DNA of 64,000 nt from Candidatus Eiseniibacteriota bacterium (GTDB taxonomy: Bacteria; Eisenbacteria; RBG-16-71-46; CAIMUX01; JAHJDP01). The notes under the pieces were generated by a model. It made no database searches and was not told the origin of the DNA. It saw only the letters and a list, made by a program, of their open reading frames with translations. Made by a program: the position numbers and the translations under genes. The DNA is taken from assembly GCA_018831195.1 (NCBI GenBank), contig JAHJDP010000031.1, positions 7,151 to 71,150 of the forward strand, read 5' to 3'. How positions within the stretch are numbered: the first letter of the stretch is position 1; every line of letters begins with the position of its first letter. This document shows, piece after piece, positions 5,494 to 45,140 of the stretch.

Positions 5494-5568
5494 GATAGCG
5501 CCGCGTTGAAAACCGAATGGAAGACCCGCGTTTGACGGCCTCACGGTTGACCGGCCGGCCGCCATGTG

Positions 5569-5610
5569 ATATCCTCCTTGCGTCTTCAAGGATATAAAAC
5601 TTTCCCATTT
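5569..5610 (+). terminator. Candidate hairpin downstream of pgi (stem ATATCCT/AGGATAT, 7 bp, 13-nt loop) followed by AAAACTTTCCCATTT
   Basis: Seen in sequence; T-tract interrupted, so weak. Confidence 0.25.
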
Positions 5611-5685
5611 CGTATTCGCAAAATTGAAGCTTGTTCCGGTTTCACCTGCTGTGTTGTGCAAGACCATGTCGACATGGAGGATCCT

Positions 5686-6411
5686 ATGAAAGCGGCAATC
5701 CCAATTTTGTTTCTCAGTATGCTGATTCCGGCGGCACTTACTATGGAAGCGGCCGGCGACGCCCTTGATTTGGGTTTCTCCACCAATACGATCCTTATCG
5801 AAAGCGAAACGGGCAGGGATTGTGAGCTTCCATTTGAGTATCTGATAAATGACGACGGGTCTTTCGAGAACGGATACGCCTGGTCCCATGACGGAGCCTT
5901 GGAGCCGTACTATGGGGCTTGGGCGGAGAGCTTCCCCCAGGGATGGGTCCGCAGTCTTGCCTTTTGGTTCACCCAGACCGGAGACTGGGCCGGCCAATCA
6001 TTGGATGCCTACATTTGGGAATATGATGCCGGGAACCCCGGCAATGTCCGCTGCCTGATTCCCGATCAAATCATAGACATGCCGGCTTACTGGCCTACAT
6101 TCTCAGCACATGAAGTTGAGGTTAATTGTGATACCGGCGATTTGCATTTCGCCGGATTTTGGGGAAACTGGCCGGATGAACAAAACGGGTGGTTTCTGGC
6201 GGCCGATGAAGACGGTCCCGGCGTAGGAGATCCAAGAACGAATATTTCCCCCCTTGCCACGGAATGGCCGCAGGGTTGGCACCACCCGAATATCCTGCCC
6301 CCCTTTGAAGAGTGTAAGAATCTCGGCATTCATGAGTGCTGGGTGGCGGGGGTCCACCCGACCGCCGCCAACCAAGCGACCTGGGGATCCATAAAATCGC
6401 TCTATCGTTGA
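5686..6411 (+). CDS. Secreted Cys-rich hypothetical protein ending in the TWGxIKxLY C-terminal tail
   Basis: RBS GGAGGAT; signal peptide MKAAIPILFLSMLIPAALTMEAAG; ends ...AANQATWGSIKSLYR; tail shared with three other proteins in window. Confidence 0.7.
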   Translation: MKAAIPILFLSMLIPAALTMEAAGDALDLGFSTNTILIESETGRDCELPFEYLINDDGSFENGYAWSHDGALEPYYGAWAESFPQGWVRSLAFWFTQTGDWAGQSLDAYIWEYDAGNPGNVRCLIPDQIIDMPAYWPTFSAHEVEVNCDTGDLHFAGFWGNWPDEQNGWFLAADEDGPGVGDPRTNISPLATEWPQGWHHPNILPPFEECKNLGIHECWVAGVHPTAANQATWGSIKSLYR

Positions 6412-9362: not shown

Positions 9363-10454
9363 TTATGGCTGCGTGGGCGCCCACAATGACTCGCGCCGGT
9401 AGAGCTGGCGCAGCGCCCCTTCACCCAGGCACCGCAGGGACGTCGCCCGCAATAGCCGGCGGACTTCCCCGCGCCCTATTTTGACCTTCGCTTCCAACAC
9501 CTCGGGATTGTCCCAAGCCCGTTTGAGTGTTGAGAGGGCGAGAAAAAGGGGCCAAAGGCAGAAAAGACGGATGCGGGGAGCCGAGCGCGGAATGAGAAGA
9601 GTGAATTCCAGCGCACCCTCAAGATGATCCAGCGATTTCCTGATCAAATCTTTCACAATTTCCAAAGAGGATTCCCGCGCCGCGGGATCGAGCAGGCACT
9701 CCACGGCCAAGCCGTGAAAAGAGGCCAGGGAGCGGGGCACATAGGACCACCCCCGTGCCCGGTCGGCGACAATATCTTGGACAATATTTGTATACTGGAG
9801 GCCGAGGCTGAAGTGAAAGGCCGTCCGCTCCAACCCCCGGCGCCGATCCCCATCCGTCAAACCCAATTGCGCACAGAAGAGCTGCTGTAAGAAACGGCCG
9901 ACCGTTCCCGCAACACAATCTGCATATTGTACAAGCTCGTTCTCGTTGTCCAGCGCGCCGATCAGAGGCCGGCAGACGACCGGCATCGCGGGGTCGATCA
10001 CCATAACTTCGCGGGAGATAGTGGCCGCCATGCCGCGCGACATCTCACCGACACATCCGGCGATGAGTTTCTTTTGTTCCGAAGGCAGCCGGTTGACGGA
10101 CAGAATCACGCGGGCTGATTCGACGGCAAGCGACCAACTCTGACGGGTCTCTTCGTCCGCCTCAACAAATCGGGATTGTGAAGCGAGAGCCCGCAGCTTC
10201 TCATCCAACAAAGCGCTCACCTCGGGATCCCACGACCCGCAGAGCGCCTCCACCGCATCGGCGTATTGTTTAAGCGCCTCAACTCGAAGCGGGGCGGGAA
10301 TCGATGTATCGTCTTCGATCGTGTCGGCGATCCGGCAGAGGAGATAGGCCAGCAGTACCGGGCGACCCAGGGCAGGCGGCAGAACACGGATCGCCATGGC
10401 AAAGGTCCGCGAGACCCGGGGCAGCATCCGCTTGCAGAATTTTAAATCGCTCAC
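9363..10454 (-). CDS. Squalene synthase (farnesyl-diphosphate farnesyltransferase), eukaryote-like type
   Basis: VSRTFA, YLLCRIADTIEDD (DxxxD), YADCVAGTVG, GLQYTNIVQDI motifs align with FDFT1/Sqs family; GTG start overlapping downstream stop. Confidence 0.8.
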   Translation of the reverse strand: MSDLKFCKRMLPRVSRTFAMAIRVLPPALGRPVLLAYLLCRIADTIEDDTSIPAPLRVEALKQYADAVEALCGSWDPEVSALLDEKLRALASQSRFVEADEETRQSWSLAVESARVILSVNRLPSEQKKLIAGCVGEMSRGMAATISREVMVIDPAMPVVCRPLIGALDNENELVQYADCVAGTVGRFLQQLFCAQLGLTDGDRRRGLERTAFHFSLGLQYTNIVQDIVADRARGWSYVPRSLASFHGLAVECLLDPAARESSLEIVKDLIRKSLDHLEGALEFTLLIPRSAPRIRLFCLWPLFLALSTLKRAWDNPEVLEAKVKIGRGEVRRLLRATSLRCLGEGALRQLYRRESLWAPTQP

Positions 10455-11917
10455 GTCGCCGCTCCGCTTCCGCGCGTTTCCGCTCGTTTCCGGCCGCGCT
10501 CATAGAGAATCAATGCGGAAATGATAAAGAGCGCTGTTCCGCCGGCAACTTTAATAAGGTGCAAGCTCGGATTCGCGCTTCCTCCCGGCGGAAGAATCGC
10601 CAGGATCATGGCGAGGGTTACGGCGGCGAAACCCAGCAATCCGCAAAACCAGACACCGAGACGACCGCCGGGCAAATCCAGAACCTTTGAACTTCCCCCC
10701 ATCCCGCGGATCCCTTTATCCAAGCGGATCAGCGCGATAAACATGTATAAGTAGGGGATGAAGTAGACAAGGAGCGTTGTGTCGACGAGCACCATATAGA
10801 TTTCCTGCGGACCGGCGCCGAGAGATCCGGCAATGATAAAGAAGGAGGCGAGGATACCCTGAAAGAGCAGGGCGACATGCGGGGAACCCCAGCGGGGGTG
10901 CACACGTCCCAGGGATTCCGGGAGATACTTCTCAAGCCCGGCGACAAAGAGGATACGGGCTGAACCGCCCAGCCAGGCGCCGACGCCACCGATGCCGCCC
11001 AAAGTCATGAGAAGGGCGACCGCTCCGCCGAGCCCCGGCGCGCCGACTTTGGCGCCGACCGAGGCGATCGCCTGCAGCACACCGGTGATGATACTGATTT
11101 CTGAACCGGGGACGGCAACCAGGATCGCCGCTGTTCCGAGAATGTAGATCAGGGTAATAATGATCCCCGAAACAATCATAGCCCGGTGCAGATTGCGGCG
11201 GGGATTTTTGATTTCTCCCCCAAGGACCGCGGCCAGCTCCAATCCGGCAAAGGCAAAGCAGATCTCGGCAAAGAAGGAGATTGTATCGCGGCTACCCAAA
11301 TCCGGTAGAACATTCTTGAGGGTGATCGTATTCGCCGGGCCATATTTCACCCAGGCGAGAAATCCGAGCACGACCAGCAGCAGGGCGGGGATCCATGCCG
11401 CCAACCCGCCCAAATTGTGTATCCAGCGCCCCGTCTTCAGGCCGAGAATGTTCGCCCCCAGGGCGATCCAGAGAACGGCGAGTGAGAAGAGAACAACATA
11501 GAGTGTGCTGCCCTCGAGCGGCCGGGTCGCATCCCCCCCGATAAATGAAGCGAAGCCGGCGAGGGCGACCAGCAGGGTCGGATAATAGATAATGTTGTTG
11601 GCCCAATAGCACCATCCGGCGATAAACCCATGGCGCGGGCCGAAGGCCCGCTGCGACCAAACATAGACGCCGCCTTCTTCGGGTATCGCGGAGCCGAGAC
11701 GCGCAACGGCCATTCCCTGCGGAATAAAGAAAGCGATCAGCGCCAAAACCCAAAGAGAGAGAGAGGAAGGTCCTCCGGCGGCGGCGAGGGCGACCCATCG
11801 TAATCCGACAATCGCAACGATGTTGAAGAGGACCAGATCTCTAAAGCCCATGACACGACGGAGTTCACCCATCCTGACCTCTCCCGGTTTCATTATCTGG
11901 CCTCTGGCGGTCCGCAC
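10451..11917 (-). CDS. APC-family amino acid permease
   Basis: 12 predicted TM helices, typical APC N-terminal motifs (GxGxF-like VGLRWVALAAAGGP); overlaps sqs start by 4 nt. Confidence 0.8.
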   Translation of the reverse strand: MRTARGQIMKPGEVRMGELRRVMGFRDLVLFNIVAIVGLRWVALAAAGGPSSLSLWVLALIAFFIPQGMAVARLGSAIPEEGGVYVWSQRAFGPRHGFIAGWCYWANNIIYYPTLLVALAGFASFIGGDATRPLEGSTLYVVLFSLAVLWIALGANILGLKTGRWIHNLGGLAAWIPALLLVVLGFLAWVKYGPANTITLKNVLPDLGSRDTISFFAEICFAFAGLELAAVLGGEIKNPRRNLHRAMIVSGIIITLIYILGTAAILVAVPGSEISIITGVLQAIASVGAKVGAPGLGGAVALLMTLGGIGGVGAWLGGSARILFVAGLEKYLPESLGRVHPRWGSPHVALLFQGILASFFIIAGSLGAGPQEIYMVLVDTTLLVYFIPYLYMFIALIRLDKGIRGMGGSSKVLDLPGGRLGVWFCGLLGFAAVTLAMILAILPPGGSANPSLHLIKVAGGTALFIISALILYERGRKRAETRGSGAAT

Positions 11918-12219
11918 AGATTTGGATGCCCCGATACTAGGTCAAGAAATGATCCCGCGAAACAGCCGCGGGACCGCCCCGAAACGATTTTCACCTCATC
12001 GGCGGCGCCATTATCCGCAACAAGAAAATCACCTCTTCAGCGATGGGCAAACCGACCGAAAGGTTCTTGTGGAGACCCTAGAAAACCGTCTATTATGGTG
12101 GCGCAGATGCGCCCTCAGGGGCCAGACATGACAGCGGCTAAACGCCAGCTGGAGCCGGGTATCCCCTTTCACTTCCGGCAAGTAGCTGGAGCCAATCGGT
12201 ATTGCACCTGGAGGTCCCC

Positions 12220-13395
12220 ATGAGGATTCCCACCCATCTGAGGCCATTCTACGCCGCCCTGATCTTGATACTCCTCTTTCTCTTCCCACCCTCTCACGCC
12301 ACCGCCGATGGAGACGCCCGGGGGAAAATCGCCGTTATCGAAGATGCTGCGATGCTGCATGCCTTCAGCACGGAGACGGGACATTGGTCATCCCTCAACT
12401 ACAGCGGAAGCGTGATGACCCATCTTCTCAGCGACTATCTGGGTCTCTTCATAACGGATGAGAATGTTTATGCCTACAATCCGATCAGTAATAACTGGGT
12501 GCCCCACCACTATCTTGGAAACCTCCTGGGATGGGATCTCAAGTCGGCCACCGCGGTCTGCTGGACGGCGAACAACTGCTTTGCCGTCGCAACGATTTGG
12601 GCTCAATGGAATGTCGAGCCGATGTCCTATCGAGAGCGGGTGATCGGAGCCGGTTCGGCCGGCAATTTCGCTCTTGTGTGGACAAATGTGCGCGCCTTGG
12701 CCTACAGCTCGGGAACAGGCGCTTGGGTTACGATCCAACTGCCGGAAAGAGCGGTTGGCGGGCTTGCCTCCGACGGATTGGGGCTTGTTTGGACCGATGC
12801 CAGTGTCTATGCCTTTGACGCGACGCCCCCCGGCGCTTGGATACCGCTTGGTCTGGAGGGGGTTCAAGGGATCAGCGCCGCGGGATCGGGGGAAATCGGT
12901 TTGATCTGGGGTGACAATGAGGCCCTGGCCTACAGCGGCGTCCTGAACGATTGGTTTAACATAAATAGCGATCAGTCGTTTCTTGGAGGCGTCGCCGGCG
13001 GCGAGGTCGGGTTGATCTGGACCGAGACAAAGGCTTTCGGCTTCAATGCATGGACCGGTCAATGGGTGAGTCTCTCTCTGCAACCAGAGACATCCGGCGT
13101 GGAGGAGCCATCGCAAAGCTCATCGGACCAATTCAGGATCTCTCCGAACCCCTGCGCGGGCCCCACCATGAGCTTCCAGCTTCCCGGTGATTCATCCTGG
13201 AGATTGGATATTGTTGATGTCACCGGACGCCGTGTTCGACGGTTTGATTCTTCAGAACTCTCTCCGGGCGCCTCGTTGGAATGGAATCGCACCGATGAAG
13301 AGGGCCGGTCGTTGCAAGCCGGTGTCTACTGGGTTCAGGCGAGATCAGAGAACCGCGAGGAAGTCCGGCGGATTGTTCTTCTGCCGCCGCAATAG
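12220..13395 (+). CDS. Secreted protein with seven tandem 38-residue repeats and a T9SS-type C-terminal sorting domain
   Basis: RBS GGAGGT; signal peptide; repeats with consensus GLIWTDxxAYAYxxxTGxWV at strict 38-aa period x7; C-terminus SPNPCAG..RLDIVDVTGRRV..WNRTDEEGRSLQAGVYWVQAR..RRIVLL matches the T9SS C-terminal-domain / Por_Secre_tail pattern. Confidence 0.75.
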   Translation: MRIPTHLRPFYAALILILLFLFPPSHATADGDARGKIAVIEDAAMLHAFSTETGHWSSLNYSGSVMTHLLSDYLGLFITDENVYAYNPISNNWVPHHYLGNLLGWDLKSATAVCWTANNCFAVATIWAQWNVEPMSYRERVIGAGSAGNFALVWTNVRALAYSSGTGAWVTIQLPERAVGGLASDGLGLVWTDASVYAFDATPPGAWIPLGLEGVQGISAAGSGEIGLIWGDNEALAYSGVLNDWFNINSDQSFLGGVAGGEVGLIWTETKAFGFNAWTGQWVSLSLQPETSGVEEPSQSSSDQFRISPNPCAGPTMSFQLPGDSSWRLDIVDVTGRRVRRFDSSELSPGASLEWNRTDEEGRSLQAGVYWVQARSENREEVRRIVLLPPQ

Positions 13396-13495: not shown

Positions 13496-14254
13496 TTATT
13501 CGTAGAGTCTCTTGATCTGACCCCACGTGCTTTCCCGTGTGGGCGTCGGCTCGTTACAAAGGGCGTTAAAGAAGGTCACGGTTTCGGTCTCCCCCCATTC
13601 GAGATTGATAATCTGTGATTCGGGGTAGATCGGCTCCCAATCCGGCGGCATGATTTCCGATACTATATATTCACCGAGAAGGAGACCCTCCCAGCAGAAG
13701 CGACCGGAGTTGTCCGTCATCCGGCAAAATTGATCGCCATAGGGAGTCTCGATACAGACCCACCAGCCGGGAATAGGAAGATCCACATCGGTCAGGATTT
13801 CATTGCAATCGGTATCTTCATACTTCTCGGCGCAGATCGTTCCCGTGCCATTACAAACATAAAAGGTCACTTCGGCAATCGCCTCATCGCCCGCCTCAAA
13901 TGACCAGTATTCCAGACGGATCCAATATTTCCCGTCGAGGAGACTGTTTGGAACCGTCCAATACCGAGTGATGCTCATGCCGGTGGCGCCTGGATAGGTT
14001 TCCGTATCGAGGAGAATTGTCTGTGTGGGATCCCACAATTCAAAGAGCACATAGTTCGGAGTCGTGGAATAGGTTATCTCCCATGAAATCTCAACCTGGC
14101 CGCCCGGATTCTCGACGCAAAAGGGTGGTTCCGGCTCTCGTCCCAGATTGATCGTTGCCTCGGATATGTCCGCCAGAAGCGGTGTCGCCATGATGGCCGC
14201 GAGGACCAAAACCAAGAGAACCTTCAATGCTATCATGTTGCCGTTCAATTTCAT
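13496..14254 (-). CDS. Secreted Cys-rich protein, tandem paralog 1, ending ...EPTPTRESTWGQIKRLYE
   Basis: RBS AAGGGAGGAG before MKLNGN; signal peptide ending LLAD; ~70% identical to the next gene. Confidence 0.75.
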   Translation of the reverse strand: MKLNGNMIALKVLLVLVLAAIMATPLLADISEATINLGREPEPPFCVENPGGQVEISWEITYSTTPNYVLFELWDPTQTILLDTETYPGATGMSITRYWTVPNSLLDGKYWIRLEYWSFEAGDEAIAEVTFYVCNGTGTICAEKYEDTDCNEILTDVDLPIPGWWVCIETPYGDQFCRMTDNSGRFCWEGLLLGEYIVSEIMPPDWEPIYPESQIINLEWGETETVTFFNALCNEPTPTRESTWGQIKRLYE

Positions 14255-14431
14255 CGATGCTCCTCCCTTCATATAGATTAGGTATCGACGCTGCTTCATC
14301 GTCCCTGCATCAAATCCATGCTTCGAAATATACTTATTTATGAAATAACTAATAATAATATCACTAATTGAGATCGGATATCAAGTCTATTTGGAGGGCC
14401 CGGCGAGTTTAATGCGGATCAGGTTAAGGCT

Positions 14432-14477
14432 TAAAAAAAGGACGGAAAACGCCCGGGTTCTCACCAAACCCGGGCGC
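14432..14477 (-). terminator. Rho-independent terminator (minus strand) after paralog 2: stem GCGCCCGGGTT/AACCCGGGCG then TTTTCCGTCCTTTTTTT
   Basis: Seen directly: 9-10 bp GC stem, 7-nt loop, U-run. Confidence 0.7.
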
Positions 14478-14503
14478 AATCTCATGCCAGCTGCGGATAA
14501 AAC

Positions 14504-15262
14504 CTATTCGTAGATTCTCTTGATCTGGCCCCATGTGCTTTCACGAGTTGGTGTTGGCTCAGGGCACATGCTGTTGAAGAAGGTGATGGTGATCGACTCA
14601 CCCCACTCAAGATCAACAAGCTGAGATATGGGATAAATAGGCACCCAGTCGGGCTGCATGACCTCAAAAACCGTGTATTGACCGAGCTGGAGACCATCCC
14701 AACAGGCGATTCCGTATTGATCGGTTTGCTGACAGTACTGATCGCCATAGGGGGTTTCCAAGCAAACCCACCAACCCTGGATGGGGAGATCGGCCCTATT
14801 CAGAATGCCGTCGCAATCGGTATCATCCCACTTCTCAGCGCAGATGCTGCCGGTACCATTACAAACGTAGAAAGAGACTTCGGCATTGGCTTCATTGCCG
14901 GCCTCGTATGACCAAAACTCGATTCGGATCCAATATTTCCCATCAACAAGCCCATTCGGGACAACCCAACTCCGCATGATGTTCACACCCGTTGCGCCGG
15001 GATAGGTTTCGGTTTCAAGCAGAACCGTCATGGTGGGATCCCAAAGCTCATAGAGGACAAAATTCGGTGTCGTCTCGTATGTGACGAACCAGTTGATATC
15101 GAGTGTTCCCCCTGGATTTTCAACGCAGTACGGCGGTTCAGGCTCCCGTCCCAGGTTGATTGTGGCTTCCATCGGATCAGCCAGGACTGGAACGATCAAA
15201 GTGATGGCTAATGTTAAAGCCAAACAAACGGTGAGGATTGAACGGCTGGCGTGAGTCTTCAT
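14504..15262 (-). CDS. Secreted Cys-rich protein, tandem paralog 2, ending ...EPTPTRESTWGQIKRIYE
   Basis: RBS GGGAGGGG before MKTHAS; signal peptide ending VLAD; shares CVENPGG, CNGTG-IC-AEK, WWVC-ETPYGDQ-C motifs with paralog 1. Confidence 0.75.
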   Translation of the reverse strand: MKTHASRSILTVCLALTLAITLIVPVLADPMEATINLGREPEPPYCVENPGGTLDINWFVTYETTPNFVLYELWDPTMTVLLETETYPGATGVNIMRSWVVPNGLVDGKYWIRIEFWSYEAGNEANAEVSFYVCNGTGSICAEKWDDTDCDGILNRADLPIQGWWVCLETPYGDQYCQQTDQYGIACWDGLQLGQYTVFEVMQPDWVPIYPISQLVDLEWGESITITFFNSMCPEPTPTRESTWGQIKRIYE

Positions 15263-15489
15263 CGATGCCCCTCCCACTGTGGCCGGATGCCGACCAAAGT
15301 ATGTCTTCCCTGCATCACGTTGCGGGTCCTAAATAGACCCATTCCTACAATCACACTGGATGATATCAGCCAATGGAGCGAATTACAAGTGTATTTTTGC
15401 TTGAGACGCCCAGAAAAAGAAGACTCGCAATTCCTTGTCCACGTTGGAGTTGGAATTCATGGCCGAGGAGAAACCCTTGATTTGAATGT

Positions 15490-15936
15490 TTACGGCCTGT
15501 TCTCTGGGGGCGGCGGGCCGATTTGGGTGCCAATGCCGACACCGGGAAATCCGGTGTCTCTCACGATATCGAGTATCCAGACAACCTCTCCATGGCGGAC
15601 CCCCGCCTCGGCCTTAATCATCACCCGGCTCTGGGGATCGGCCGCCAGGATCTCGAGCAAGCGTCCCTTGAGTTGGGGCATGGGCGTCTCCTCGCCATCG
15701 AGAATAAGACGGCCGCTTTCGGTCATGATGACCTCGACCTCATGCGCCAGCTCCCCCTCCAACGCCGGCGTCGACGTGGTCGAGCGCGGCAATTGAAGTT
15801 CGAGCTCACCCACCCGTTTGAAGGTCCCGGTCACAGCAAAGAAAATGATCAATAGGAAAAGAACATCGATCAATGGTGTCACATTGAGGGTGATCTGCTT
15901 GCGCTCTTTTCCGATCCGGAAGGAGATGGCGCTCAT
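15490..15936 (-). CDS. exbD: ExbD/TolR biopolymer transport protein
   Basis: NVTPLIDVLFLLIIFF TM motif typical of ExbD. Confidence 0.85.
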   Translation of the reverse strand: MSAISFRIGKERKQITLNVTPLIDVLFLLIIFFAVTGTFKRVGELELQLPRSTTSTPALEGELAHEVEVIMTESGRLILDGEETPMPQLKGRLLEILAADPQSRVMIKAEAGVRHGEVVWILDIVRDTGFPGVGIGTQIGPPPPENRP

Positions 15937-16601
15937 CGGTCCACCTCCCTTGATGAGGTCGCGGATGACGTCATCGATGCGGCCGCCGGTGAGGCCGGGT
16001 GGTTCAAACGAAGTTGAGCCACCAGATGCCCGGCATAGGCTTCTATTTCGGCGACGAGGGTTTCGGATTTTGAGGCGAGGACATTGTAAGTGATAAGGGA
16101 GGGAATGCCGATTCCCAGCCCGATGGCCGTCGTGACAATCGCCTCGCTGATGCCGCCGGAAAGGGCCTGCGGATCACCCAGACCGGAGAGAGAGATCGAG
16201 GCGAACATCTTTATCATTCCCAGCACCGTTCCAAGCAGGCCGAGCAACGGCGCCGCCTGCGCGATTGTTTGTAACCAGACAAGATGCCGTTCCAACACGG
16301 CTGTCTTTTGACGGCCCATATCGACCAGCATGTCGCGCATGATTTCCCATGGTTCATGGGCGTATTCGAGTCCGACGAGGATCACATCCGAAAAGACACC
16401 CGGGTTACGCCGGCAGACTTCAATCGCAAGATCCAGCTCACGGTTGGGACGAACCGCTTCAACCACCTCGATGATTTCGCGGGGCAGCACGCGGCTCCGT
16501 CTCAGGGCCAGTATCCGCTCGATCGCAATCGTGGTCGCAACAATGCTGCAGAGCGCCAGCGGGTAAATGAGGGGTCCGGCCTTTTGCAGGAACTCAAACA
16601 T
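15933..16601 (-). CDS. exbB: ExbB/TolQ/MotA-family proton channel
   Basis: Three TM helices, GLLGTVLGMI motif; 4-nt overlap with exbD. Confidence 0.85.
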   Translation of the reverse strand: MFEFLQKAGPLIYPLALCSIVATTIAIERILALRRSRVLPREIIEVVEAVRPNRELDLAIEVCRRNPGVFSDVILVGLEYAHEPWEIMRDMLVDMGRQKTAVLERHLVWLQTIAQAAPLLGLLGTVLGMIKMFASISLSGLGDPQALSGGISEAIVTTAIGLGIGIPSLITYNVLASKSETLVAEIEAYAGHLVAQLRLNHPASPAAASMTSSATSSREVDR

Positions 16602-16626
16602 GAACAGGGTCTCCTTCCGGGTTCTT

Positions 16627-17790
16627 CTAACGCCGAGAGCGCGGGCGCCCCGTCTCTTGGCGCTGAGTCTCTGGTGGTAGCGCCTTGTAACTCATACGAA
16701 TTTGAAGGATCAGGGTCTTCTCTGGAAAATGGCTGGGAAGGGGGTCATAGGGGGCCGCCTTCCGGAGCGCGTCGACACTGGCCTCCCGAAGCGCTTGGTG
16801 GCCGTCCGCCGCGATGACATCACACCGGAGAAGCTCGCCGGTCAGCGCGATCTCAAGCTCGCAATCAGTATAACCATGTATCAAGCCGAGATGGTATCCG
16901 AGCGGGGCAATCCATTTTTGTATAACTTTGCGCCGAAACTGCTGCATCCAGTAACCATAGGCCCATTCAGTCGTATTGAGACTGATAATCCCCGAGAGAT
17001 CGGTATTCCCGCCGGGGCTCGACATCGCCTCTTGCGCGATATCGCTCATTCCAAGGGGCTGGATACGCCGTTGCGCTGAGTCGGAGGCGAGACCCTGCTC
17101 CAGGAAAGATTTCATGGGATGCTCCAGTCCCGCGCCTTTGGGAATCAGAAAAGAGCTTCCCGTTTCAGATGGTTCAGGCGTTTCTTTTATTTCCGGTGAT
17201 TCTATATTTTCAGCGGTAACCTCGGGTTCCGCGCCCTTATCTTCGGGCTTTTCCTCGGGCTTGACCGCCTCAGGCGCCGTGGCATCTTCCGGCCTTTCCG
17301 TCTCAGCCGTCATTCCCTGCGCCGTCCCCTGGTCCATCCTGATCTGCGGGGCGTCGGAGTAACCCTCCTGGCGCGGCAGCGCCCCGGCCTCTCCTCCGGG
17401 CAGGTCGTCCCGCGTGCGGCTCGTGACGTTGCTGAGATAATCGGCCCGCTCGGGAGGATCATCCGCCCGATCGGGTGGGAGTTCGGTGAAAAAGGTCGGC
17501 TCTTCCGGCGTCGGGGGTTGGGGGTCCGGTTCCGGCGCAAAGACGACCTGAATCGGCTCCGGCGCTTCCTTTTGTGCCAAGGCCGGTTCCACAAGATGCA
17601 GGAATTGAGCCGCGAGGAGAACTCCAAAATGGAGCATCAGCGTGAGGATAAAGGCAAAGATCCAGACACCCCGTCTTGACCGATGTTGCCCGAGTATCGG
17701 GGTTTGCGGCCCCGGTCCACCCGGCCTGGTCATCAGTGTCGCTTGGTGGGAAATATTCATCGAGTGTCTCGGTTTGCGGATCATCGGCAC
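16627..17790 (-). CDS. TonB-like energy transducer (N-terminal TM anchor, Pro/Glu-rich spacer, C-terminal TonB domain)
   Basis: TM VWIFAFILTLMLHFGVLLAA, long PEP/PEE-rich region, C-terminal domain with ...YPxxAxxxxxG pattern (KWIAPLGYHLGLIHGY...LRKAAPYDPLPSHF); start GTG 17790 or ATG 17784. Confidence 0.7.
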   Translation of the reverse strand: MPMIRKPRHSMNISHQATLMTRPGGPGPQTPILGQHRSRRGVWIFAFILTLMLHFGVLLAAQFLHLVEPALAQKEAPEPIQVVFAPEPDPQPPTPEEPTFFTELPPDRADDPPERADYLSNVTSRTRDDLPGGEAGALPRQEGYSDAPQIRMDQGTAQGMTAETERPEDATAPEAVKPEEKPEDKGAEPEVTAENIESPEIKETPEPSETGSSFLIPKGAGLEHPMKSFLEQGLASDSAQRRIQPLGMSDIAQEAMSSPGGNTDLSGIISLNTTEWAYGYWMQQFRRKVIQKWIAPLGYHLGLIHGYTDCELEIALTGELLRCDVIAADGHQALREASVDALRKAAPYDPLPSHFPEKTLILQIRMSYKALPPETQRQETGRPRSRR

Positions 17791-19336: not shown

Positions 19337-21076
19337 GTGAAGATTCAATGCCCGGCTTTGTCGGGGAATCCGGCGTTTTATCGAGCACATTCGAAGGGGT
19401 ATGACACCGTGAGTGCCATCCTGCTGGATCATGACCAGGTTCCAGGCCTCTCCGCCGAGGATGTCATCCTCGCGCAATGGGCCATTGAAGAAGCTCGTCG
19501 TTTGGGTGCGACCTATGCCGAGGCCCGCTGGGGATTATTGGAAACCCGCCGCATCCGCATCAAAGATCAACATGTCGCTCTTCTCGCCCACACCAATCAT
19601 CGCGGCCTCGGTCTCAGGGTATTGGTTGACGGCGCATGGGGATTTGTCTCCCACCCCCTGCAGCCCCCGACCGGGGAGACCCTCGTAACACCGGCCGGTG
19701 AGGATCTTCTGAGAGGTGAGATTCAGCCGGATGAGACCCATCCGCCCATCTCCGCGATCGATGATATCTTCGATGTCGATCTTTCCGCAAGAGGGCCGAT
19801 CCAGCCCCATACCGCCGCGTTCGCCTATGCCAGACTGAAAGGAACGATCATCAGCTTGGCGGAAGCTGCCGTCGCCATGGCGCGCGCCGCCGCCGCACAC
19901 AACCGCCGCCCGATTCAATTGGCCCCGGCCGCGCCTCAAAGCGGCGTCTGGCGCACTGATCGCGAGCGCGATCCCTTCGAAGTCCCCCTCGAAGAAATGG
20001 TCGAGTACCTGATGACCGCCGAGAAAGTGTCGCGGCAAGCTGAAAAAGATCTTGTTTCCACAGAGACATGGCTGACGGCCTGGCGGAAAGCCCATTGGCT
20101 TTGTACAAGCGAGGGAACTCTTATCCTTCAAGAGATTCTTGAGTGCGGCGGCGGTTTGAAATGCCTCGCTCATACCGATGGCGTGACCCAGGAGCGCACC
20201 TACCCCGGCTTGAGGGGATGCGATTGTGAAACCGGCGGGTATGAGAGGCTTCTTGCACACGAGCTTCAAAAAAACGCGCCCAGGGTCGCCGCGGAGGCGG
20301 TCGCTCTGACCACGGCGCCTCCCTGCCCATCTAAAGTCAGCGATCTTGTCATCGATGGATCGCTCGCCGCCATACAGATCCATGAGACGATCGGCCACGC
20401 GGTGGAGCTGGATCGCGTCTTTGGCAGCGAGGAAAGCCTGGCCGGCGGCAGTCATCTCACCCCCGACAAACTCGACTGGTTCCGCTTCGGCTCTGATCTG
20501 ATTAATGTCTCGGCCGATGCCACGGCCGCACTGGGCTTGGGGAGCTTCGGTTACGATGATGAGGGAACACCGGCCCAGCGGGTTCCCATCATAAAGAACG
20601 GCGTCTTCAGCGGGTATTTAACAAATCGCGAAACGGCCGGCAAATTGGGGATTTTAAGCGGCGGTGCCGCCAGGGCGCAGGACTGGAGCCATATGCCGTT
20701 AATTCGTATGACAAATGTCAACCTGGCGCCCGGCGGTTGGACTTTTGATAAACTCATCGAAGACACGGAAAATGGTTTTTATTTTGAGACCTCGAAGAAT
20801 CCCAGTATTGATCATCTTCGCTTGAACTTCTTCGTCGCCGCGGAGATGGCTTGGGAAATACGGGATGGCAAGAAGATCCGGATGTACAGGGATCCGGCCT
20901 ACGGAGGAATCTCGTATCAGCTCTGGCGCGCTTGCGATGCGATCACAGATTACCGCCATTGGCGGATATGGGGCATCCCCAACTGCGGGAAGGGAGATCC
21001 CAAACAGATCGGCCATGTCGGACATGGGGCTTCGCCCCTGAGAATGCGAAATGTCCGGATCGGATCGCGATCATGA
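19337..21076 (+). CDS. TldD-family metallopeptidase
   Basis: HETIGHAVELD (HExxxH), YDDEGTP, PmbA_TldD fold features; true start probably internal (GTG ~19409). Confidence 0.8.
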   Translation: MKIQCPALSGNPAFYRAHSKGYDTVSAILLDHDQVPGLSAEDVILAQWAIEEARRLGATYAEARWGLLETRRIRIKDQHVALLAHTNHRGLGLRVLVDGAWGFVSHPLQPPTGETLVTPAGEDLLRGEIQPDETHPPISAIDDIFDVDLSARGPIQPHTAAFAYARLKGTIISLAEAAVAMARAAAAHNRRPIQLAPAAPQSGVWRTDRERDPFEVPLEEMVEYLMTAEKVSRQAEKDLVSTETWLTAWRKAHWLCTSEGTLILQEILECGGGLKCLAHTDGVTQERTYPGLRGCDCETGGYERLLAHELQKNAPRVAAEAVALTTAPPCPSKVSDLVIDGSLAAIQIHETIGHAVELDRVFGSEESLAGGSHLTPDKLDWFRFGSDLINVSADATAALGLGSFGYDDEGTPAQRVPIIKNGVFSGYLTNRETAGKLGILSGGAARAQDWSHMPLIRMTNVNLAPGGWTFDKLIEDTENGFYFETSKNPSIDHLRLNFFVAAEMAWEIRDGKKIRMYRDPAYGGISYQLWRACDAITDYRHWRIWGIPNCGKGDPKQIGHVGHGASPLRMRNVRIGSRS

Positions 21077-22437
21077 GATGCATCTGGCCGACACCTGAAA
21101 TCGAAGACATCATCGTTGATGTTATGGATGACGCGGTGGAGCATGTCCCGGGAGACGGCTTGCATCTCCTTTTAGAAGCGACACGGGAGCGCGTTTTTAG
21201 ACTGGCTGATGGAGAGATCCACCAAACCGCAGACAGAAAAGACCTCCGTCTTATCGTGACGGCTATCGAAGGTAACCGGCAAGGGGTTGTCTCCACCGGA
21301 CTTCTCGTTCCCGACGAGATACACACCGCCATAGGCCGGGCGCGGCGGATCTGCAGTTTTCTTCCGCCCGATCCGCAATTCCCCGGTCTGCCGGGTCCGG
21401 TGAAGGCAGCGCAGGACGGCGGCGATCATCATGACCGGGAGACGGCCAATGCCACATCCGAGGAGCTGGCGCGTATCGCATCCGTCGGGCTTGAAACGGC
21501 GCGCGCCGAGGGCGCCATCGCGGCCGGAGCGCTGAGTGTGCGGGAGAATCTGTTCCTGGCTCGCGACAGCGAGGGGCTGGCTTCGCGCAGCATTTCTACA
21601 AAAGCTGATCTATCCCTTACCTGTTTCGCGGGATCGGGCGGCAAGCAGAGCTCGGGTTACTCAAATCGATTCGCCTGGAGACTATCCGATCTGAATCCCG
21701 AAGAAACGGCGATCAAGGCCGCGCGCAAAGCAAAATACGGCATTGTCCGCCGTTCTCTGAATCCGGGTTTTTATACGGCGATTCTCGGACCGACCGCGGT
21801 CGCGGATTTGGTCGGTATTCTGGCGCACATCGGATTCGGCGCAACAGAAGTGAACGAATACCGCAGTTTCGCCAGCGGGCGGTTGGGCGAAAAAGTTTTG
21901 GATGAAAAGTTCACTCTCCGGGATGACCCGCAGCATCCCCAGACCGCGGCGCCGGGAATCGACTATGAGGGTATTCCCACAAAACCCCTGACTTTTGTGG
22001 AGAGGGGTGTGCTGAAAGACATCGCCACGAATCACCGCACGGCCCATCTCGGCAATAAACCATCCAATGGGCGGGGCGCCGATCCTTTATCAAGGTGGAC
22101 CGATATCTTGATGAATCATCTTGTCATGGAGCCGGGCGCCACATCGCGCGAAAAGATGATACGTTCGGTTCATAGGGGCATCCTGATCAACCGCCTCTGG
22201 TACGCCAGAGTTGTACAACCGCGCGAAACGCGGATCACGGCGCTGACACGGAACGGACTGCTGACGATCGACGGAGGAGAAATCACGGGCGCGGCCGGCA
22301 ACTTCAGGACAAACCTATCGCTCGTGGAACTCCTCTCGCATCTCAAGGCCGTATCCGACACAACAGTGCCGACCCATGGCGTTGTTGCGCCGACTCTTCT
22401 TGTTGAAGGATTCCCACTGACCAGTCCCAGCGCTTAG
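21073..22437 (+). CDS. TldE/PmbA-family peptidase partner
   Basis: ATGA overlap with tldD stop; TldD/PmbA family similarity without HExxxH. Confidence 0.7.
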   Translation: MRCIWPTPEIEDIIVDVMDDAVEHVPGDGLHLLLEATRERVFRLADGEIHQTADRKDLRLIVTAIEGNRQGVVSTGLLVPDEIHTAIGRARRICSFLPPDPQFPGLPGPVKAAQDGGDHHDRETANATSEELARIASVGLETARAEGAIAAGALSVRENLFLARDSEGLASRSISTKADLSLTCFAGSGGKQSSGYSNRFAWRLSDLNPEETAIKAARKAKYGIVRRSLNPGFYTAILGPTAVADLVGILAHIGFGATEVNEYRSFASGRLGEKVLDEKFTLRDDPQHPQTAAPGIDYEGIPTKPLTFVERGVLKDIATNHRTAHLGNKPSNGRGADPLSRWTDILMNHLVMEPGATSREKMIRSVHRGILINRLWYARVVQPRETRITALTRNGLLTIDGGEITGAAGNFRTNLSLVELLSHLKAVSDTTVPTHGVVAPTLLVEGFPLTSPSA

Positions 22438-22461
22438 GTGGAGCAGGGAGGTATTCTTTAG

Positions 22462-32424: not shown

Positions 32425-32949
32425 ATGGCTCTTGAGAATGAAAACGCCGTTATCCGGCGCTGCCAACGCGGCGAAATCGACGCCTTTGAGACCATCTATC
32501 ATTATTACGAGGAACAACTTATGGCGGTGGCGTTCCGCCTGCTGAGCAACCGCGAGGAGGCCGAAGAGGCCCTTCATGATGCGATGTTCAAGGCCTACCG
32601 CAAAATAGGACAATTCCGCCATCAGGCCTCGTTCTCAAGCTGGCTGCACCGGATCGTCATCAATATCTGCTATGACCGGTTGCGCAAAATGAAACGCCGC
32701 GGGGCACAGAAGCCCTTGGAGGAGCTCGGGGAGATCGGCAGGGAGGACAATATGGAACTGCGGCGGCGCCTGCATGAAGCGATTGCCGGGTTGCCTCCAA
32801 AGATGAAGACCTGCTTTGTGCTGTTCGTGCAGCAGGGGTACAAGCAACAGGAGATCGCCGACATGCTGGATATCAAGTTGGGAACGGTCAAGCTCCATGT
32901 TTACGAAGCCCGGACCCGTCTGCGCGAGACTCTGGCCGATCAAATGTGA
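32425..32949 (+). CDS. ECF (sigma-70 group 4) RNA polymerase sigma factor
   Basis: Region 2 (SWLHRIVINICYDRLRK) and region 4 (QEIADMLDIKLGTVKLHVYEARTRLRE). Confidence 0.9.
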   Translation: MALENENAVIRRCQRGEIDAFETIYHYYEEQLMAVAFRLLSNREEAEEALHDAMFKAYRKIGQFRHQASFSSWLHRIVINICYDRLRKMKRRGAQKPLEELGEIGREDNMELRRRLHEAIAGLPPKMKTCFVLFVQQGYKQQEIADMLDIKLGTVKLHVYEARTRLRETLADQM

Positions 32950-33040
32950 AAGGGGTCGGCTGAAGTCTATGATGGAAGTATCTGAAAGAAGAGTCCGACA
33001 AAGATGATTCATAGAAGTGTTTCATAGAGGTGTCCACCCG

Positions 33041-33724
33041 ATGAATTGCGACAAGTATCGACAGCGCGAGATTGGTGAAATCACACCGGACGAATTCGCC
33101 CGACACGCAGAGACGTGTCGGATCTGCGGAGACGCCCTCCGCATCGATCGCCGTATCGAATCCGAGGCGGCCGGCCTCCCGATTCCGGATCCCACTCCCG
33201 GCCTCTGGTGGAAAATCGCCGTCGATCTCGAAAGGGAACAGATCCGCGACCGATTGCTTTGGCGTGATCTGTCGGCTCATCTCAAGAAATGGATCCGTCC
33301 ACAACACCATCCGGTGTTGAAAATCGCCGCTGTATCCGTTCTTGCGATCGGCCTGGCTTTCATCTTATACCCGCGCTCCTCTCCAACCATCAGGAGAAAT
33401 CTGTTAACAGAACAGGCGCTCGATCGGGCTGAAGCGCTTGAAAACGAATATGTACAAGCGATCGAGGAACTGGAGTTGCTTGCCCAACCGCTGATCGCCG
33501 ACATTGATACCGAGTTGCGGCTGCACTATCGTTCACGCCTCGAGACGATCGATACGCAAATTAGACGCTGCCGCGCCGCGCTGGAAAGCGATCGCGGCAA
33601 CGCTCATATTCGGCGCTATCTGCTCACCGCCTATCAGGATAAACAGGAAACAATAGCCAACCTTATTAGACTATCCGAACAATCAAAGAAATCTCCAAGG
33701 ATGAGAAAGGAGCTTGAGATATGA
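33041..33724 (+). CDS. Anti-sigma factor (zinc-finger zf-HC2 type, single TM)
   Basis: CDKYRQREIGE...HAETCRICGD N-terminal HxxxCxxC motif, central TM helix; RBS GAGGTG. Confidence 0.8.
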   Translation: MNCDKYRQREIGEITPDEFARHAETCRICGDALRIDRRIESEAAGLPIPDPTPGLWWKIAVDLEREQIRDRLLWRDLSAHLKKWIRPQHHPVLKIAAVSVLAIGLAFILYPRSSPTIRRNLLTEQALDRAEALENEYVQAIEELELLAQPLIADIDTELRLHYRSRLETIDTQIRRCRAALESDRGNAHIRRYLLTAYQDKQETIANLIRLSEQSKKSPRMRKELEI

Positions 33725-38053: not shown

Positions 38054-38066
38054 TAAATACACTTTA

Positions 38067-39245: not shown

Positions 39246-39355
39246 ATCAATCCCTCCTTATATGGGCGGGCCGCGAACCCGCCTCAGATTCACCATAAAC
39301 CACTAATACTGATTGGTTGAATATTACATATACAATTCAACACCGCACAGCCGGA

Positions 39356-39694: not shown

Positions 39695-39705
39695 GGTGTG
39701 TGAAT

Positions 39706-40577: not shown

Positions 40578-40638
40578 GGCTCTCTCCTGCGTTCACTACT
40601 TAGCCTGCCGGCGCCTGCCGGTAATTCCTATATAGATA

Positions 40639-40664
40639 CAGACACCGGAACGGCGGATAGGTTA
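40639..40664 (-). promoter_or_regulatory. Candidate ECF-type promoter TAACC-N16-GTCTG upstream of second sigma gene (similar to 32352..32380)
   Basis: Seen on minus strand ~60 nt upstream of TTG start. Confidence 0.3.
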
Positions 40665-40730
40665 GCATCCACCGCTGATTTTTTACCAAAGTCTCCGGCC
40701 GAGGTGGCGGATATCCGGGATCCCAGATTC

Positions 40731-44522: not shown

Positions 44523-44527
44523 CACTC

Positions 44528-45136: not shown

Positions 45137-45140
45137 GTTT

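What the first reader, a model, noticed from the sequence alone, without database searches (positions are those of the whole stretch)
12220..13395. Protein made of seven strict 38-residue repeats (GLIWTDxxAYAYxxxTGxWV) fused to a T9SS-type C-terminal domain
After the signal peptide the sequence parses into seven consecutive 38-aa units. Each holds a conserved block such as GLVWTDASVYAFDATPPGAWIPL, GLIWGDNEALAYSGVLNDWFNI, GLIWTETKAFGFNAWTGQWVSL, FALVWTNVRALAYSSGTGAWVTI or LGLFITDENVYAYNPISNNWVPH. Seven short units suggest a 7-bladed propeller or a beta-solenoid built from a repeat type I cannot assign to WD40, PQQ, Kelch, YVTN or NHL. The C-terminus (NPCAG...RLDIVDVTGRRV...GVYWVQAR...RRIVLL) matches the T9SS sorting domain, so the protein is probably surface-exposed. 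The organism therefore carries at least two C-terminal tag types: the T9SS CTD here and the short TWG tail elsewhere.
Basis: seen in the sequence. Interest (0 to 1): 0.6.

Follow-up and report, generated by a model that had tools for sequence, protein, structure and literature searches.

The report
Secreted seven-bladed propeller with sorting tail
This gene from a Candidatus Eisenbacteria genome encodes an exported seven-bladed beta-propeller with unusually short 38-residue blades and a C-terminal domain of the type IX secretion kind; it is a new sequence family of a familiar architecture, and its function is unknown.

Summary
Window 12220-13395 (+) encodes a 391-aa protein: a signal peptide, seven units of 37-39 residues, a disordered linker and an 87-aa C-terminal domain (CTD). 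A 38-position unit HMM built only from homologues finds exactly seven copies in the target. In 500 shuffles, at most one copy was found. AlphaFold2 gives a confident seven-bladed beta-propeller (28 strands, pLDDT 92.8), not a solenoid, plus a seven-stranded Ig-like CTD.

No Pfam or NCBIfam repeat model hits the target. Relatives show only half-motif, mostly sub-threshold Kelch hits, and an idealised consensus shows an NHL-like resemblance. The repeat is therefore an unassigned propeller family.

The CTD is FlgD_ig / T9SS type A-like. It scores below cut-off here and above cut-off in relatives. In related genomes it also sits at the C-terminus of proteases and other passenger proteins.

T9SS machinery could not be shown: none of about 40 window ORFs is a T9SS gene, and the whole genome is not available.

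One new point: in about half of the related loci the gene lies next to a conserved secreted protein ending in the undescribed tail [ST]WGxIKxx[YF]x.

Verdict: a real feature, a new member of a known kind, of moderate-to-low interest.

The parts
12210..12214 (+). Shine-Dalgarno-like GGAGG, 5 nt upstream of the ATG
   Evidence: Read from the sequence.
12220..12306 (+). Signal peptide, aa 1-29 (basic n-region, hydrophobic AALILILLFLF, A27-T28-A29 then D30, an AxA cleavage site); no lipobox Cys
   Evidence: Sequence inspection. Modelled as a helix at residues 5-21. All homologues have an equivalent N-terminus.
12307..12411 (+). Blade 1 (aa 30-64): GDAR | IAVIE | MLHAFS | HWSSLN; degenerate, lacks the strand-B Trp
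   Evidence: Unit HMM domain 1, 21.6 bits; strands.
12412..12522 (+). Blade 2 (aa 65-101): VMTHLL | GLFIT | NVYAYN | NWVPHH
   Evidence: Unit HMM domain 2, 25.6 bits.
12523..12639 (+). Blade 3 (aa 102-140): GWDLK | TAVCW | NCFAVA | NVEP; the most divergent unit, with the invariant W127-x-x-W130
   Evidence: Unit HMM domain 3, 10.2 bits; W127 and W130 are invariant in 32 sequences.
12640..12756 (+). Blade 4 (aa 141-179): VIGAGS | FALVWT | RALAYS | AWVTIQ
   Evidence: Unit HMM domain 4, 41.5 bits.
12757..12867 (+). Blade 5 (aa 180-216): GGLAS | LGLVW | VYAFD | AWIP
   Evidence: Unit HMM domain 5, 34.6 bits.
12868..12984 (+). Blade 6 (aa 217-255): GISA | IGLIW | EALAYS | DWFNIN
   Evidence: Unit HMM domain 6, 26.6 bits.
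12985..13089 (+). Blade 7 (aa 256-290): GGVAG | VGLIW | KAFGFN | QWVSLS
   Evidence: Unit HMM domain 7, 42.5 bits.
13090..13131 (+). Disordered S/E/P/Q-rich linker (aa 291-304)
   Evidence: pLDDT is below 50 at residues 291-302. Length and sequence vary among homologues, with insertions of up to about 30 residues.
13132..13392 (+). C-terminal Ig-like beta-sandwich domain (aa 305-391) of the FlgD_ig / T9SS type A class: PNP near its start, GVYWV, and terminal RRIVLL
   Evidence: FlgD_ig 23.0, Por_Secre_tail 17.2 and TIGR04183 19.2 bits, all sub-threshold. Seven strands in the model. The family CTD profile hits FlgD (2.5e-7), the PorZ CTD (1.2e-4), the PorU CTD (0.027) and the CTD chain 8glk_D (0.032).
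13496..14299 (-). Convergent neighbour: secreted two-domain protein ending in ...STWGQIKRLYE ('TWG1' family). Recurrent neighbour of the propeller gene in other genomes and a possible partner
14504..15277 (-). Paralogue of the above (68% identity), ending in ...STWGQIKRIYE; lies downstream of tonB-like/exbB/exbD (15490-17790, - strand)

Best explanation
The gene encodes a Sec-exported protein. Its mature part begins directly with a compact seven-bladed beta-propeller of about 260 residues.

Each blade is one sequence unit of 37-39 residues with four strands:
- A: G-G-x-A (small residues).
- B: G-L-V-W-T.
- C: x-A-Y-A-F.
- D: G-x-W-x-x-L.

A disordered linker of about 14 residues joins the propeller to an 87-residue, seven-stranded Ig-like C-terminal domain of the FlgD_ig / T9SS type A sorting class.

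The most likely mechanism is that of a type IX cargo. The protein crosses the inner membrane through Sec, the CTD is recognised for transport across the outer membrane, and the propeller ends up on the cell surface or in the medium.

The propeller itself is most likely a non-enzymatic binding or scaffold module. Conservation sits in the core (Trp, Gly, small residues), and the loops of one face (B-C and D-A) are the least conserved.

Shown: the gene, the repeat, the fold (predicted with high confidence), the class of the CTD, and its use as a C-terminal tag on unrelated passenger proteins in related genomes.

Inferred: the signal-peptide cleavage site, T9SS-dependent export, surface location, the binding role, and any partnership with the neighbouring TWG-tail protein.
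For: - Gene and repeat.
- Fold: the domain model has pLDDT 92.8, pTM 0.87 and 28 strands; the full-length model has pLDDT 87.8. All top Foldseek PDB hits are beta-propellers (WD40, RCC1, BamB, IFT-A; probability 1.0, E 1e-9 to 1e-11).
- Family: about 35 clusters at E<1e-30 and 401 at E<1e-3 among 1.84 billion representatives. Every named member is from Candidatus Eisenbacteria.
- CTD class: FlgD_ig hits 25 of 32 and Por_Secre_tail 19 of 32 family members. The distant relative P0047, with about 14 units, carries a CTD that passes TIGR04183 (40.3 bits against a cut-off of 23) and PF18962 (30.8 against 27). The CTD profile hits the CTDs of PorZ and PorU and a T9SS substrate CTD chain in the PDB.
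- CTD on other passengers: the same CTD HMM finds extreme C-terminal copies on an S8 protease (L011), C25 peptidases and a beta-helix protein (L014, where TIGR04183 scores 23.9 and 29.2), an Omp28-like protein (L009) and others (L005, L015).
- CTD fold: solved T9SS CTDs are seven-stranded Ig-like sandwiches (PMC4804311), as modelled here.
- No conserved active face: mean conservation is 1.62 bits in B-C loops and 1.91 in D-A loops, against 2.1-3.1 bits in the four strands.
Against: - The target's own CTD scores are below every curated cut-off.
- The CTD profile matches flagellar FlgD Ig domains better than T9SS CTDs.
- No T9SS core gene is among about 40 window ORFs.
- A candidate porU/porV-like pair in an Eisenbacteria MAG was not confirmed.
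- No paper in the library links Eisenbacteria with T9SS, and reviews describe T9SS as confined to Bacteroidota or the FCB group (abstracts).
- No ligand or partner is identified.
- Foldseek TM-scores to solved propellers are only 0.35-0.44.
Confidence: 0.6

Rival explanations
1. The C-terminal domain is only an FlgD-like Ig domain with a structural or adhesive role, or it is the signal of some other, unknown export route. The protein is not a T9SS substrate and may stay in the periplasm.
For: - The CTD profile scores best against FlgD Ig domains (2.5e-7, against 1.2e-4 for the PorZ CTD).
- The target's T9SS models are below cut-off.
- No T9SS machinery was found in the window or in related loci.
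- The literature in the library is silent on T9SS in Eisenbacteria.
Against: - The domain is always at the extreme C-terminus, after a disordered linker.
- It occurs on unrelated secreted passengers (proteases, a beta-helix protein, an Omp28-like protein), which is how a sorting tag behaves.
- FlgD matches cover only the central part of the profile (positions 15-78), whereas T9SS CTD matches extend to the PNP start and the terminal strand.
- Related CTDs in Eisenbacteria MAGs pass TIGR04183.
- Eisenbacteria are sister to Joyebacterota, which that paper places in the FCB superphylum (PMC13271369).
Confidence: 0.22
2. The repeat is simply a divergent Kelch or NHL propeller, so the protein belongs to a described family and the repeat is not new.
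For: - Kelch_4 hits 11 of 32 and Kelch_1 hits 5 of 32 family members. One member (P0022) reaches 24.9 bits, above the 21.6 cut-off.
- A 7x idealised unit consensus matches the NHL-derived Pizza6 designer propellers (up to 52 bits) and the M. tuberculosis PknD sensor domain (18.3 bits, E 0.008) in register: GGxAxDxxGxVWxTD.
Against: - Kelch matches cover only profile positions about 27-45, i.e. 16-18 residues.
- The target itself has no repeat hit at E<=10.
- The units are 37-39 residues long, shorter than my recollection of a Kelch motif (about 44-56 residues), and lack the Gly-Gly after strand B.
- The family profile finds nothing in PDB sequences at E<=10.
- hhalign of the family against the window's own bona fide Kelch protein gives probability 0.4%, and against Pizza6 gives 0.15%.
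- The Pizza score is inflated because both sequences are perfect repeats.
Confidence: 0.12
3. The seven units form a beta-solenoid rather than a propeller.
Against: - AlphaFold2 gives four antiparallel strands per unit, 28 in all, at pLDDT 92.8.
- All 1,209 Foldseek hits at E<=0.001 that were inspected at the top of the list are propellers.
Confidence: 0.02

Closest known systems
T9SS type A cargo proteins (CTD families TIGR04183 / Pfam PF18962 Por_Secre_tail; e.g. P. gingivalis RgpB CTD, PMC4804311)
   Same: Both have an N-terminal signal peptide, a passenger domain, a flexible linker and a C-terminal seven-stranded Ig-like sandwich of about 80-90 aa. PNP lies near the CTD start, G-x-Y-[WF]-V in the penultimate strand, and a basic/hydrophobic last strand.
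   Different: The scores are below the curated cut-offs (19.2 against 23; 17.2 against 27). The central part is closer to FlgD_ig (W-D-x-x-D-x-x-G motif). The host phylum has no demonstrated T9SS.
FlgD Ig-like domain (Pfam PF13860; PDB 3c12, 3osv, 7eh9)
   Same: This is the best sequence match to the CTD (family profile E 2.5e-7; target 23.0 bits).
   Different: FlgD is a cytoplasmically made flagellar hook-cap protein in which the Ig domain is internal. Here the domain is the extreme C-terminus of signal-peptide proteins with many different passengers.
PorZ (PDB 5m11), T9SS surface component made of beta-propellers plus a CTD
   Same: It is the top Foldseek hit for the full-length model (E 2e-12). 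It has the same architecture of propeller(s) followed by a CTD, and its CTD matches the family CTD profile (E 1.2e-4).
   Different: PorZ is 758-aa long with two propellers. The NCBIfam PorZ model scores only 14.1 bits against a cut-off of 260, and only over the CTD. TM-score is 0.25.
Kelch repeat propellers (Pfam Kelch_1, Kelch_4)
   Same: Both have four-stranded blades and share the strand C to D hairpin [AV]-Y-x-[FY]-[DNS]-x(3-5)-W. Family members give sub-threshold Pfam hits.
   Different: The blades are 37-39 aa. There is no Gly-Gly after strand B, strand B carries W-T instead, only half of the Kelch profile aligns, and the target has no hit. My recollection that Kelch blades run to about 44-56 aa was not tested here.
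NHL repeat propellers (PknD sensor domain 1rwi; Pizza designer proteins)
   Same: The first half of the unit, G-G-x-A-x-D-x-x-G-x-V-W-x-T-D, aligns in register with the NHL-type S-G-V-A-V-D-S-A-G-T-V-W-V-T-D.
   Different: The similarity is seen only with an artificial idealised consensus. hhalign gives probability 0.15%. No NHL Pfam hit appears in any of 32 members. PknD and Pizza have six blades of 42 aa.

Membership tests
T9SS type A sorting domain (TIGR04183 / PF18962) | HMM score at or above the curated cut-off | tested here: not met
   TIGR04183 scores 19.2 against 23 and PF18962 scores 17.2 against 27. Relatives do pass: P0047 at 40.3 and 30.8, and the L014 proteins at 23.9 and 29.2.
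T9SS type A sorting domain (TIGR04183 / PF18962) | Located at the extreme C-terminus of a protein with a Sec signal peptide | tested here: met
   The CTD spans aa 305-391 of 391. The signal peptide was judged by inspection, with A-T-A then D at residues 27-30.
T9SS type A sorting domain (TIGR04183 / PF18962) | Seven-stranded Ig-like beta-sandwich fold (PMC4804311) | tested here: met
   The AlphaFold2 model has seven strands between residues 306 and 387, with block-mean pLDDT mostly 75-92, falling to 63 at the last residues.
T9SS type A sorting domain (TIGR04183 / PF18962) | The same tag recurs on diverse passenger proteins in the lineage | tested here: met
   The CTD HMM hits C-terminal copies on S8 and C25 peptidases, a beta-helix protein, an Omp28-like protein and others in Eisenbacteria-type loci.
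T9SS type A sorting domain (TIGR04183 / PF18962) | T9SS machinery (SprA, PorV, PorU, PorK-N/GldK-N) encoded in the same genome | not testable with these tools
   Only 64 kb of the genome is available, and none of about 40 ORFs is a T9SS gene. In L014 a C25+CTD protein is gingipain-like rather than PorU, and its 466-aa neighbour has no PorV match. An FGE-sulfatase protein there scores 49.8 bits against the GldK cut-off of 350.
Kelch repeat (Pfam Kelch_1 / Kelch_4) | Match to the full repeat model at or above the gathering score | tested here: not met
   The target has no hit at E<=10. Members match only profile positions about 27-45, and one of 32 exceeds the Kelch_4 cut-off on a 16-residue stretch.
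Kelch repeat (Pfam Kelch_1 / Kelch_4) | Repeat length of about 44-56 residues with a Gly-Gly doublet after strand B (general knowledge of the motif, recalled from memory) | tested here: not met
   The units are 37-39 residues, and strand B ends in W-T-[DNE] with no Gly-Gly.
NHL repeat (Pfam PF01436) | Significant sequence or profile match | tested here: not met
   No Pfam NHL hit in 32 members at E<=10. hhalign against Pizza6 gives probability 0.15%. Only the idealised consensus matches.
WD40 / PQQ / YVTN repeats | Pfam model match | tested here: not met
   None of these families appears among the hits of the 32 members at E<=10, apart from the WD40-like Hira model in 3 of 32 members (best E 0.0075, sub-threshold). 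HMMER's filters drop many very weak matches, so this is not an HHpred-grade test.
Beta-propeller fold (seven blades) | Seven four-stranded antiparallel sheets in a ring | tested here: met
   28 strands in 7 groups of 4, pLDDT 92.8, pTM 0.87. Foldseek gives probability 1.0 to many propellers. The model coordinates could not be inspected, so ring closure (Velcro or not) was not checked.
PorZ (NCBIfam NF052228) | Equivalog HMM score of 260 bits or more; two propellers | tested here: not met
   14.1 bits over the CTD only, and a single propeller.

The most novel reading that the evidence does not exclude
The propeller may not be ordinary cargo. It could be a conserved envelope component of Eisenbacteria, possibly single-copy (copy number per genome was not established), that works with the undescribed C-terminal tail [ST]WGxIKxx[YF]x. 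For example, it could be a surface receptor or anchor that docks the tail peptide, or a PorZ-like accessory of a sorting or attachment pathway for TWG-tail proteins. The basis is that in about half of the independent loci its gene lies within two genes of an orthologue of the same TWG-tail protein. The gene orientation and the outer flanking genes differ between those loci.
Probability: 0.1. Interest if true: 0.7.

Novelty: new member of a known kind. Interest (0 to 1): 0.35.

Why it matters
If the reading is right, a candidate phylum outside Bacteroidota uses T9SS-style C-terminal domains to put proteins on its surface. One of those proteins is a minimal 38-residue-blade propeller family that current domain libraries do not cover, so it is a candidate for a new Pfam or NCBIfam model. 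It may also be a compact natural scaffold of interest to the people who design symmetric propellers.

The more consequential lead is the recurrent neighbour. A large Eisenbacteria-specific set of secreted proteins ends in a strictly terminal 10-residue tail for which I found no model and no paper. If that tail is a sorting signal, this locus offers a first handle on its machinery.

Tried and rejected
- The family profile against PDB sequences gave no hit at E<=10.
- hhalign of the family against the window's own Kelch protein and against Pizza6 was not significant.
- The search for T9SS machinery led nowhere:
  - A homologue search with the C25 peptidase fragment from L001 returned only unnamed C25 proteins.
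  - A promising cluster in L014 (C25+CTD protein, a 466-aa protein, an FGE-sulfatase protein) failed the PorU, PorV and GldK tests.
  - Papers linking Eisenbacteria with T9SS: none. The paper on new FCB phyla does not mention T9SS.
- Cluster look-up for taxonomy gave no names.
- The metagenome scan added only two loci.
- Apart from the TWG1 protein, no other neighbour recurred across all the loci, though L001, L010 and L012 share a syntenic block upstream of the gene (M20 peptidase, aminotransferase, THDPS, LonC-like protease) and a PMT_2/TPR gene lies 2-3 genes downstream in L001, L005 and L010.
- From the TWG1 side, 0 of 4 long contigs carry the propeller within 6 kb, so the pairing is not obligatory.
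- P0132 at first looked like a propeller fused to a TWG tail. On reading, it is a chimeric ORF call.
- The G-x-S-x-G-like string GAGSAG (aa 143-148) was considered as a hydrolase motif. It was rejected because it is the innermost strand of blade 4 and equivalent to GGLAS and GGVAG in other blades.
- The opposite-strand ORF 12388-13116 was rejected as a shadow ORF (against the homologues).
Full report
**The gene.** The finding sits on a single ORF on the + strand. ATG is at 12220, preceded by GGAGG at 12210-12214, and the stop is at 13393-13395, giving 391 aa. The 242-aa ORF on the opposite strand (12388-13116) is a shadow ORF. The + strand product has full-length homologues and folds with high confidence. 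The gene stands alone. An amino-acid permease gene diverges upstream (10451-11917, -) and a secreted-protein gene converges downstream (13496-14299, -). A 100% identical partial protein in the public database is annotated 'MAG: hypothetical protein [Candidatus Eisenbacteria bacterium]'. The neighbouring genes carry tags from a second Eisenbacteria MAG, on a contig of about 77.7 kb.

**Is the repeat real?** Yes.
- Seven Trp residues (56, 93, 130, 169, 207, 245, 282) mark the same position of seven units, spaced 37, 37, 39, 38, 38 and 37 residues apart.
- On an alignment of homologues, unit-against-unit profile comparison gives probabilities above 94% for most pairs. Unit 3 is the outlier.
- A unit HMM built from 31 homologues without the target has 38 match positions, with consensus PLGGAAGGGVGLVWTSDRAYAFSATTGLWTSLPLDGPE. 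It finds exactly seven domains in the target, at 10.2-42.5 bits.
- Of 500 shuffles of the same residues, five gave a single domain of 5 bits or more, and the best scored 9.0 bits.
- There is no tandem repeat at DNA level, so the duplication is ancient.
- 'Strict 38' should therefore read '37-39, model length 38'.

**Fold.** AlphaFold2 on the family alignment gives pLDDT 87.8 for the whole protein. For residues 30-292 alone it gives pLDDT 92.8 and pTM 0.87. That region has 28 strands, four per unit. Foldseek against the PDB returns only beta-propellers with probability 1.0 (WD40 proteins, RCC1, BamB, IFT-A, designed propellers). Sequence identity is 14% or less and TM-scores are 0.35-0.44. The fold class is clear, but no solved structure is close. 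The beta-solenoid alternative is rejected.

By register with the other units, each sequence unit supplies strands A to D of one blade: A is GGxAx, B is GLVWT, C is xAYAF and D is GxWxxL. I could not inspect the coordinates, so how the ring closes is not established.

**Which repeat family?**
- The target has no Pfam or NCBIfam hit in the repeat region at E<=10.
- The family profile finds nothing among PDB sequences at E<=10.
- Across 32 family members, the only recurrent repeat models are Kelch_4 (11 members, best E 2e-5) and Kelch_1 (5 members). These always cover only profile positions about 27-45, the Y-x-F-D-x4-W hairpin. A single member exceeds a gathering score.
- A 7x idealised unit consensus matches the NHL-derived Pizza6 designer propellers and, weakly, the PknD sensor domain. 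The alignment is in register over GGxAxDxxGxVWxTD.
- That score is inflated because both sequences are perfect repeats. hhalign of the natural family against Pizza6 gives probability 0.15%, and against the window's own genuine Kelch protein (59992-61032) gives 0.4%.
- My reading is a propeller family that no current model captures. Its first half looks NHL-like and its second half Kelch-like, as expected for distant members of the propeller superfamily.

**Extent of the family.** An exhaustive HMM search of 1.84 billion representatives gives 35 proteins at E<1e-30, the orthologous family of about 385 aa. It gives 401 at E<1e-3. These include a tandem double propeller without a CTD (P0014) and proteins of about 620 aa with about 14 units. 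Genome hits that carry an organism name are Candidatus Eisenbacteria MAGs.

**The C-terminal domain.**
- Residues 305-391 follow a linker that is modelled as disordered (pLDDT below 50 at 291-302). They form seven strands, as in the solved RgpB CTD (PMC4804311).
- The target's scores are sub-threshold: FlgD_ig 23.0 against 27, Por_Secre_tail 17.2 against 27, TIGR04183 19.2 against 23.
- At family level, FlgD_ig hits 25 of 32 and Por_Secre_tail 19 of 32 members.
- A CTD profile hits FlgD Ig domains best (2.5e-7). It also hits the CTDs of PorZ (1.2e-4) and PorU (0.027) and a substrate CTD chain from a T9SS translocon entry (0.032). The T9SS matches, unlike the FlgD matches, extend to the PNP start and the last strand.
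- The distant repeat relative P0047 has a CTD that passes both T9SS models.
- In related loci the same CTD HMM finds extreme C-terminal copies on unrelated passengers: S8 and C25 peptidases, a beta-helix protein and an Omp28-like protein. Two of these pass TIGR04183.
- That is the behaviour of a sorting tag, not of a flagellar protein.

**Is there a T9SS?** This could not be decided.
- None of about 40 window ORFs is a T9SS gene.
- A cluster in an Eisenbacteria MAG (L014) looked like porU-porV. Its C25 protein matches gingipains rather than PorU, and its neighbour matches nothing.
- No paper in the library mentions Eisenbacteria together with T9SS.
- Reviews restrict T9SS to Bacteroidota or the FCB group (abstracts).
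- Eisenbacteria are treated as the sister lineage of Joyebacterota, which that paper places in the FCB superphylum (PMC13271369). NCBI lists the phylum under 'Bacteria candidate phyla'.

**Function of the propeller.** Conservation across 32 sequences is highest in the strands (A 2.71, B 3.13, C 2.82, D 2.11 bits) and in the Gly-rich A-B turns. It is lowest in the B-C loops (1.62) and D-A loops (1.91), which together form one face. The invariant residues are Trp and Gly. I see no conserved polar cluster that would suggest catalysis. The GAGSAG string is the inner strand of blade 4. The best inference is a binding or scaffold module with a variable interaction face.

**A recurrent neighbour.** The two genes downstream (13496-14299 and 14504-15277, -) are paralogues. 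Each encodes a secreted two-domain protein ending in STWGQIKR[LI]YE. Orthologues at 45-60% identity, more conserved than the propeller itself, lie within two genes of the propeller orthologue in several other loci:
- L001/L006: convergent.
- L010: convergent, with a second TWG-tail family in between.
- L003: same strand, with a GNAT gene in between.
- L008/L013: tandem.

L012 shows the second TWG-tail family directly downstream before the contig ends. L004/L007, L005, L009 and L011 lack such a neighbour. Starting from the TWG1 protein, 0 of 4 long contigs have the propeller within 6 kb. The link is therefore recurrent but not obligatory. It motivates the partner hypothesis but does not prove it.

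**Verdict.** It is a new sequence family within a well-known architecture (signal peptide, propeller, T9SS-type CTD). It appears so far confined to Candidatus Eisenbacteria: every hit that carries an organism name is from that phylum, but most of the family, including the distant ~620-aa relatives, comes from unnamed metagenome contigs. Its ligand and its export machinery are unproven.

Noticed in passing
window 5566-6411 (+), 13496-14299 (-), 14504-15277 (-), 56322-57098 (-); also L001, L003, L008, L010, L012, L013, L015-L019: These secreted proteins end in a strictly terminal tail [ST]WGx[IV]Kxx[YF][RKE], preceded by a Pro/Thr/Ser/Glu-rich linker. In the 82-cluster family of the 13496 protein, 56 keep the strict motif and most others keep a near variant. 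Every named member is from Candidatus Eisenbacteria. No Pfam or NCBIfam model hits the proteins or the tail, and no paper in the library contains the motif strings. It looks like an undescribed C-terminal sorting or anchoring tag.
   Followed up: partly
window 15490-17790 (-) with 13496-15277 (-); L017 2418-6867: A tonB-like gene (weak TonB_C hit), exbB and exbD are followed on the same strand by the TWG1 paralogues. L017 shows the same order: a 334-aa protein, ExbB, ExbD, a 302-aa protein, then TWG1. The linkage of TWG1 to an ExbBD motor is conserved in two distant genomes.
   Followed up: no
L010 9240-10139 (-), L012 4891-5790 (-); window 56322-57098 (-); second half of P0132: This is a second family of TWG-tail proteins. 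They are Cys-rich with GACC-type repeats and end in ...TTWGKVRATFR or ...TTWGGVKSIYQ. One lies directly downstream of the propeller orthologue in L012, and a gene of the same length and position in L010 was not inspected.
   Followed up: partly
P0132 (575 aa, metagenome): This looks like a chimeric gene call: an ACT-like start, an in-frame fragment of propeller units 2-3, out-of-frame sequence, and then a complete TWG-tail protein with its own signal peptide.
   Followed up: partly
L004 and L007 (same MAG, JADJQY01): Two contigs of one MAG are syntenic over more than 10 kb at about 85-100% protein identity, with many frame breaks. The propeller gene is split in L007. These are probably strain haplotigs or long-read indel errors rather than true paralogues.
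   Followed up: no
L014 1-9534 (Candidatus Eisenbacteria MAG GCA_020633975.1): A cluster of CTD-bearing proteins: a 1310-aa gingipain-like C25 peptidase with a CTD, a beta-helix protein with a CTD (TIGR04183 29.2 bits), a 466-aa protein with no match, and an LVIVD/fn3/FGE-sulfatase protein weakly like GldK/PorK (49.8 bits against a cut-off of 350).
   Followed up: partly
window 59992-61032 (-): A bona fide Kelch-repeat protein (Kelch_6 92 bits, Kelch_1 72 bits), apparently exported, in the same window. It was useful as an internal control for the Kelch comparison.
   Followed up: partly
window 33721-35307 (+) and 38067-39245 (-): Two DUF4097 'toastrack' proteins. By eye, each lies next to small genes that look like ECF sigma / anti-sigma pairs (32425-33724; 39706-40577). 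The sigma assignment was not tested.
   Followed up: no
window 19337-25029 (+): A tandem TldD/PmbA-type metallopeptidase pair (19337-21076 and 20851-22437; the ORFs overlap as listed) is followed by an exported S9 prolyl-oligopeptidase-family protein with PD40 repeats.
   Followed up: no
window 38001-46000: GC skew is strongly negative in this stretch (-0.22 at 38-40 kb, about -0.09 as far as 46 kb), compared with about 0 elsewhere. All the large genes there are on the - strand.
   Followed up: no
P0014 (624 aa) and P0047 (630 aa): The same 38-residue unit also builds larger proteins. P0014 is a tandem duplication of the whole seven-unit domain with no CTD. P0047 is a protein of about 14 units, rich in Ile, Tyr, Asn and Lys (which may point to a low-GC source), with a CTD that passes the T9SS models.
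   Followed up: partly
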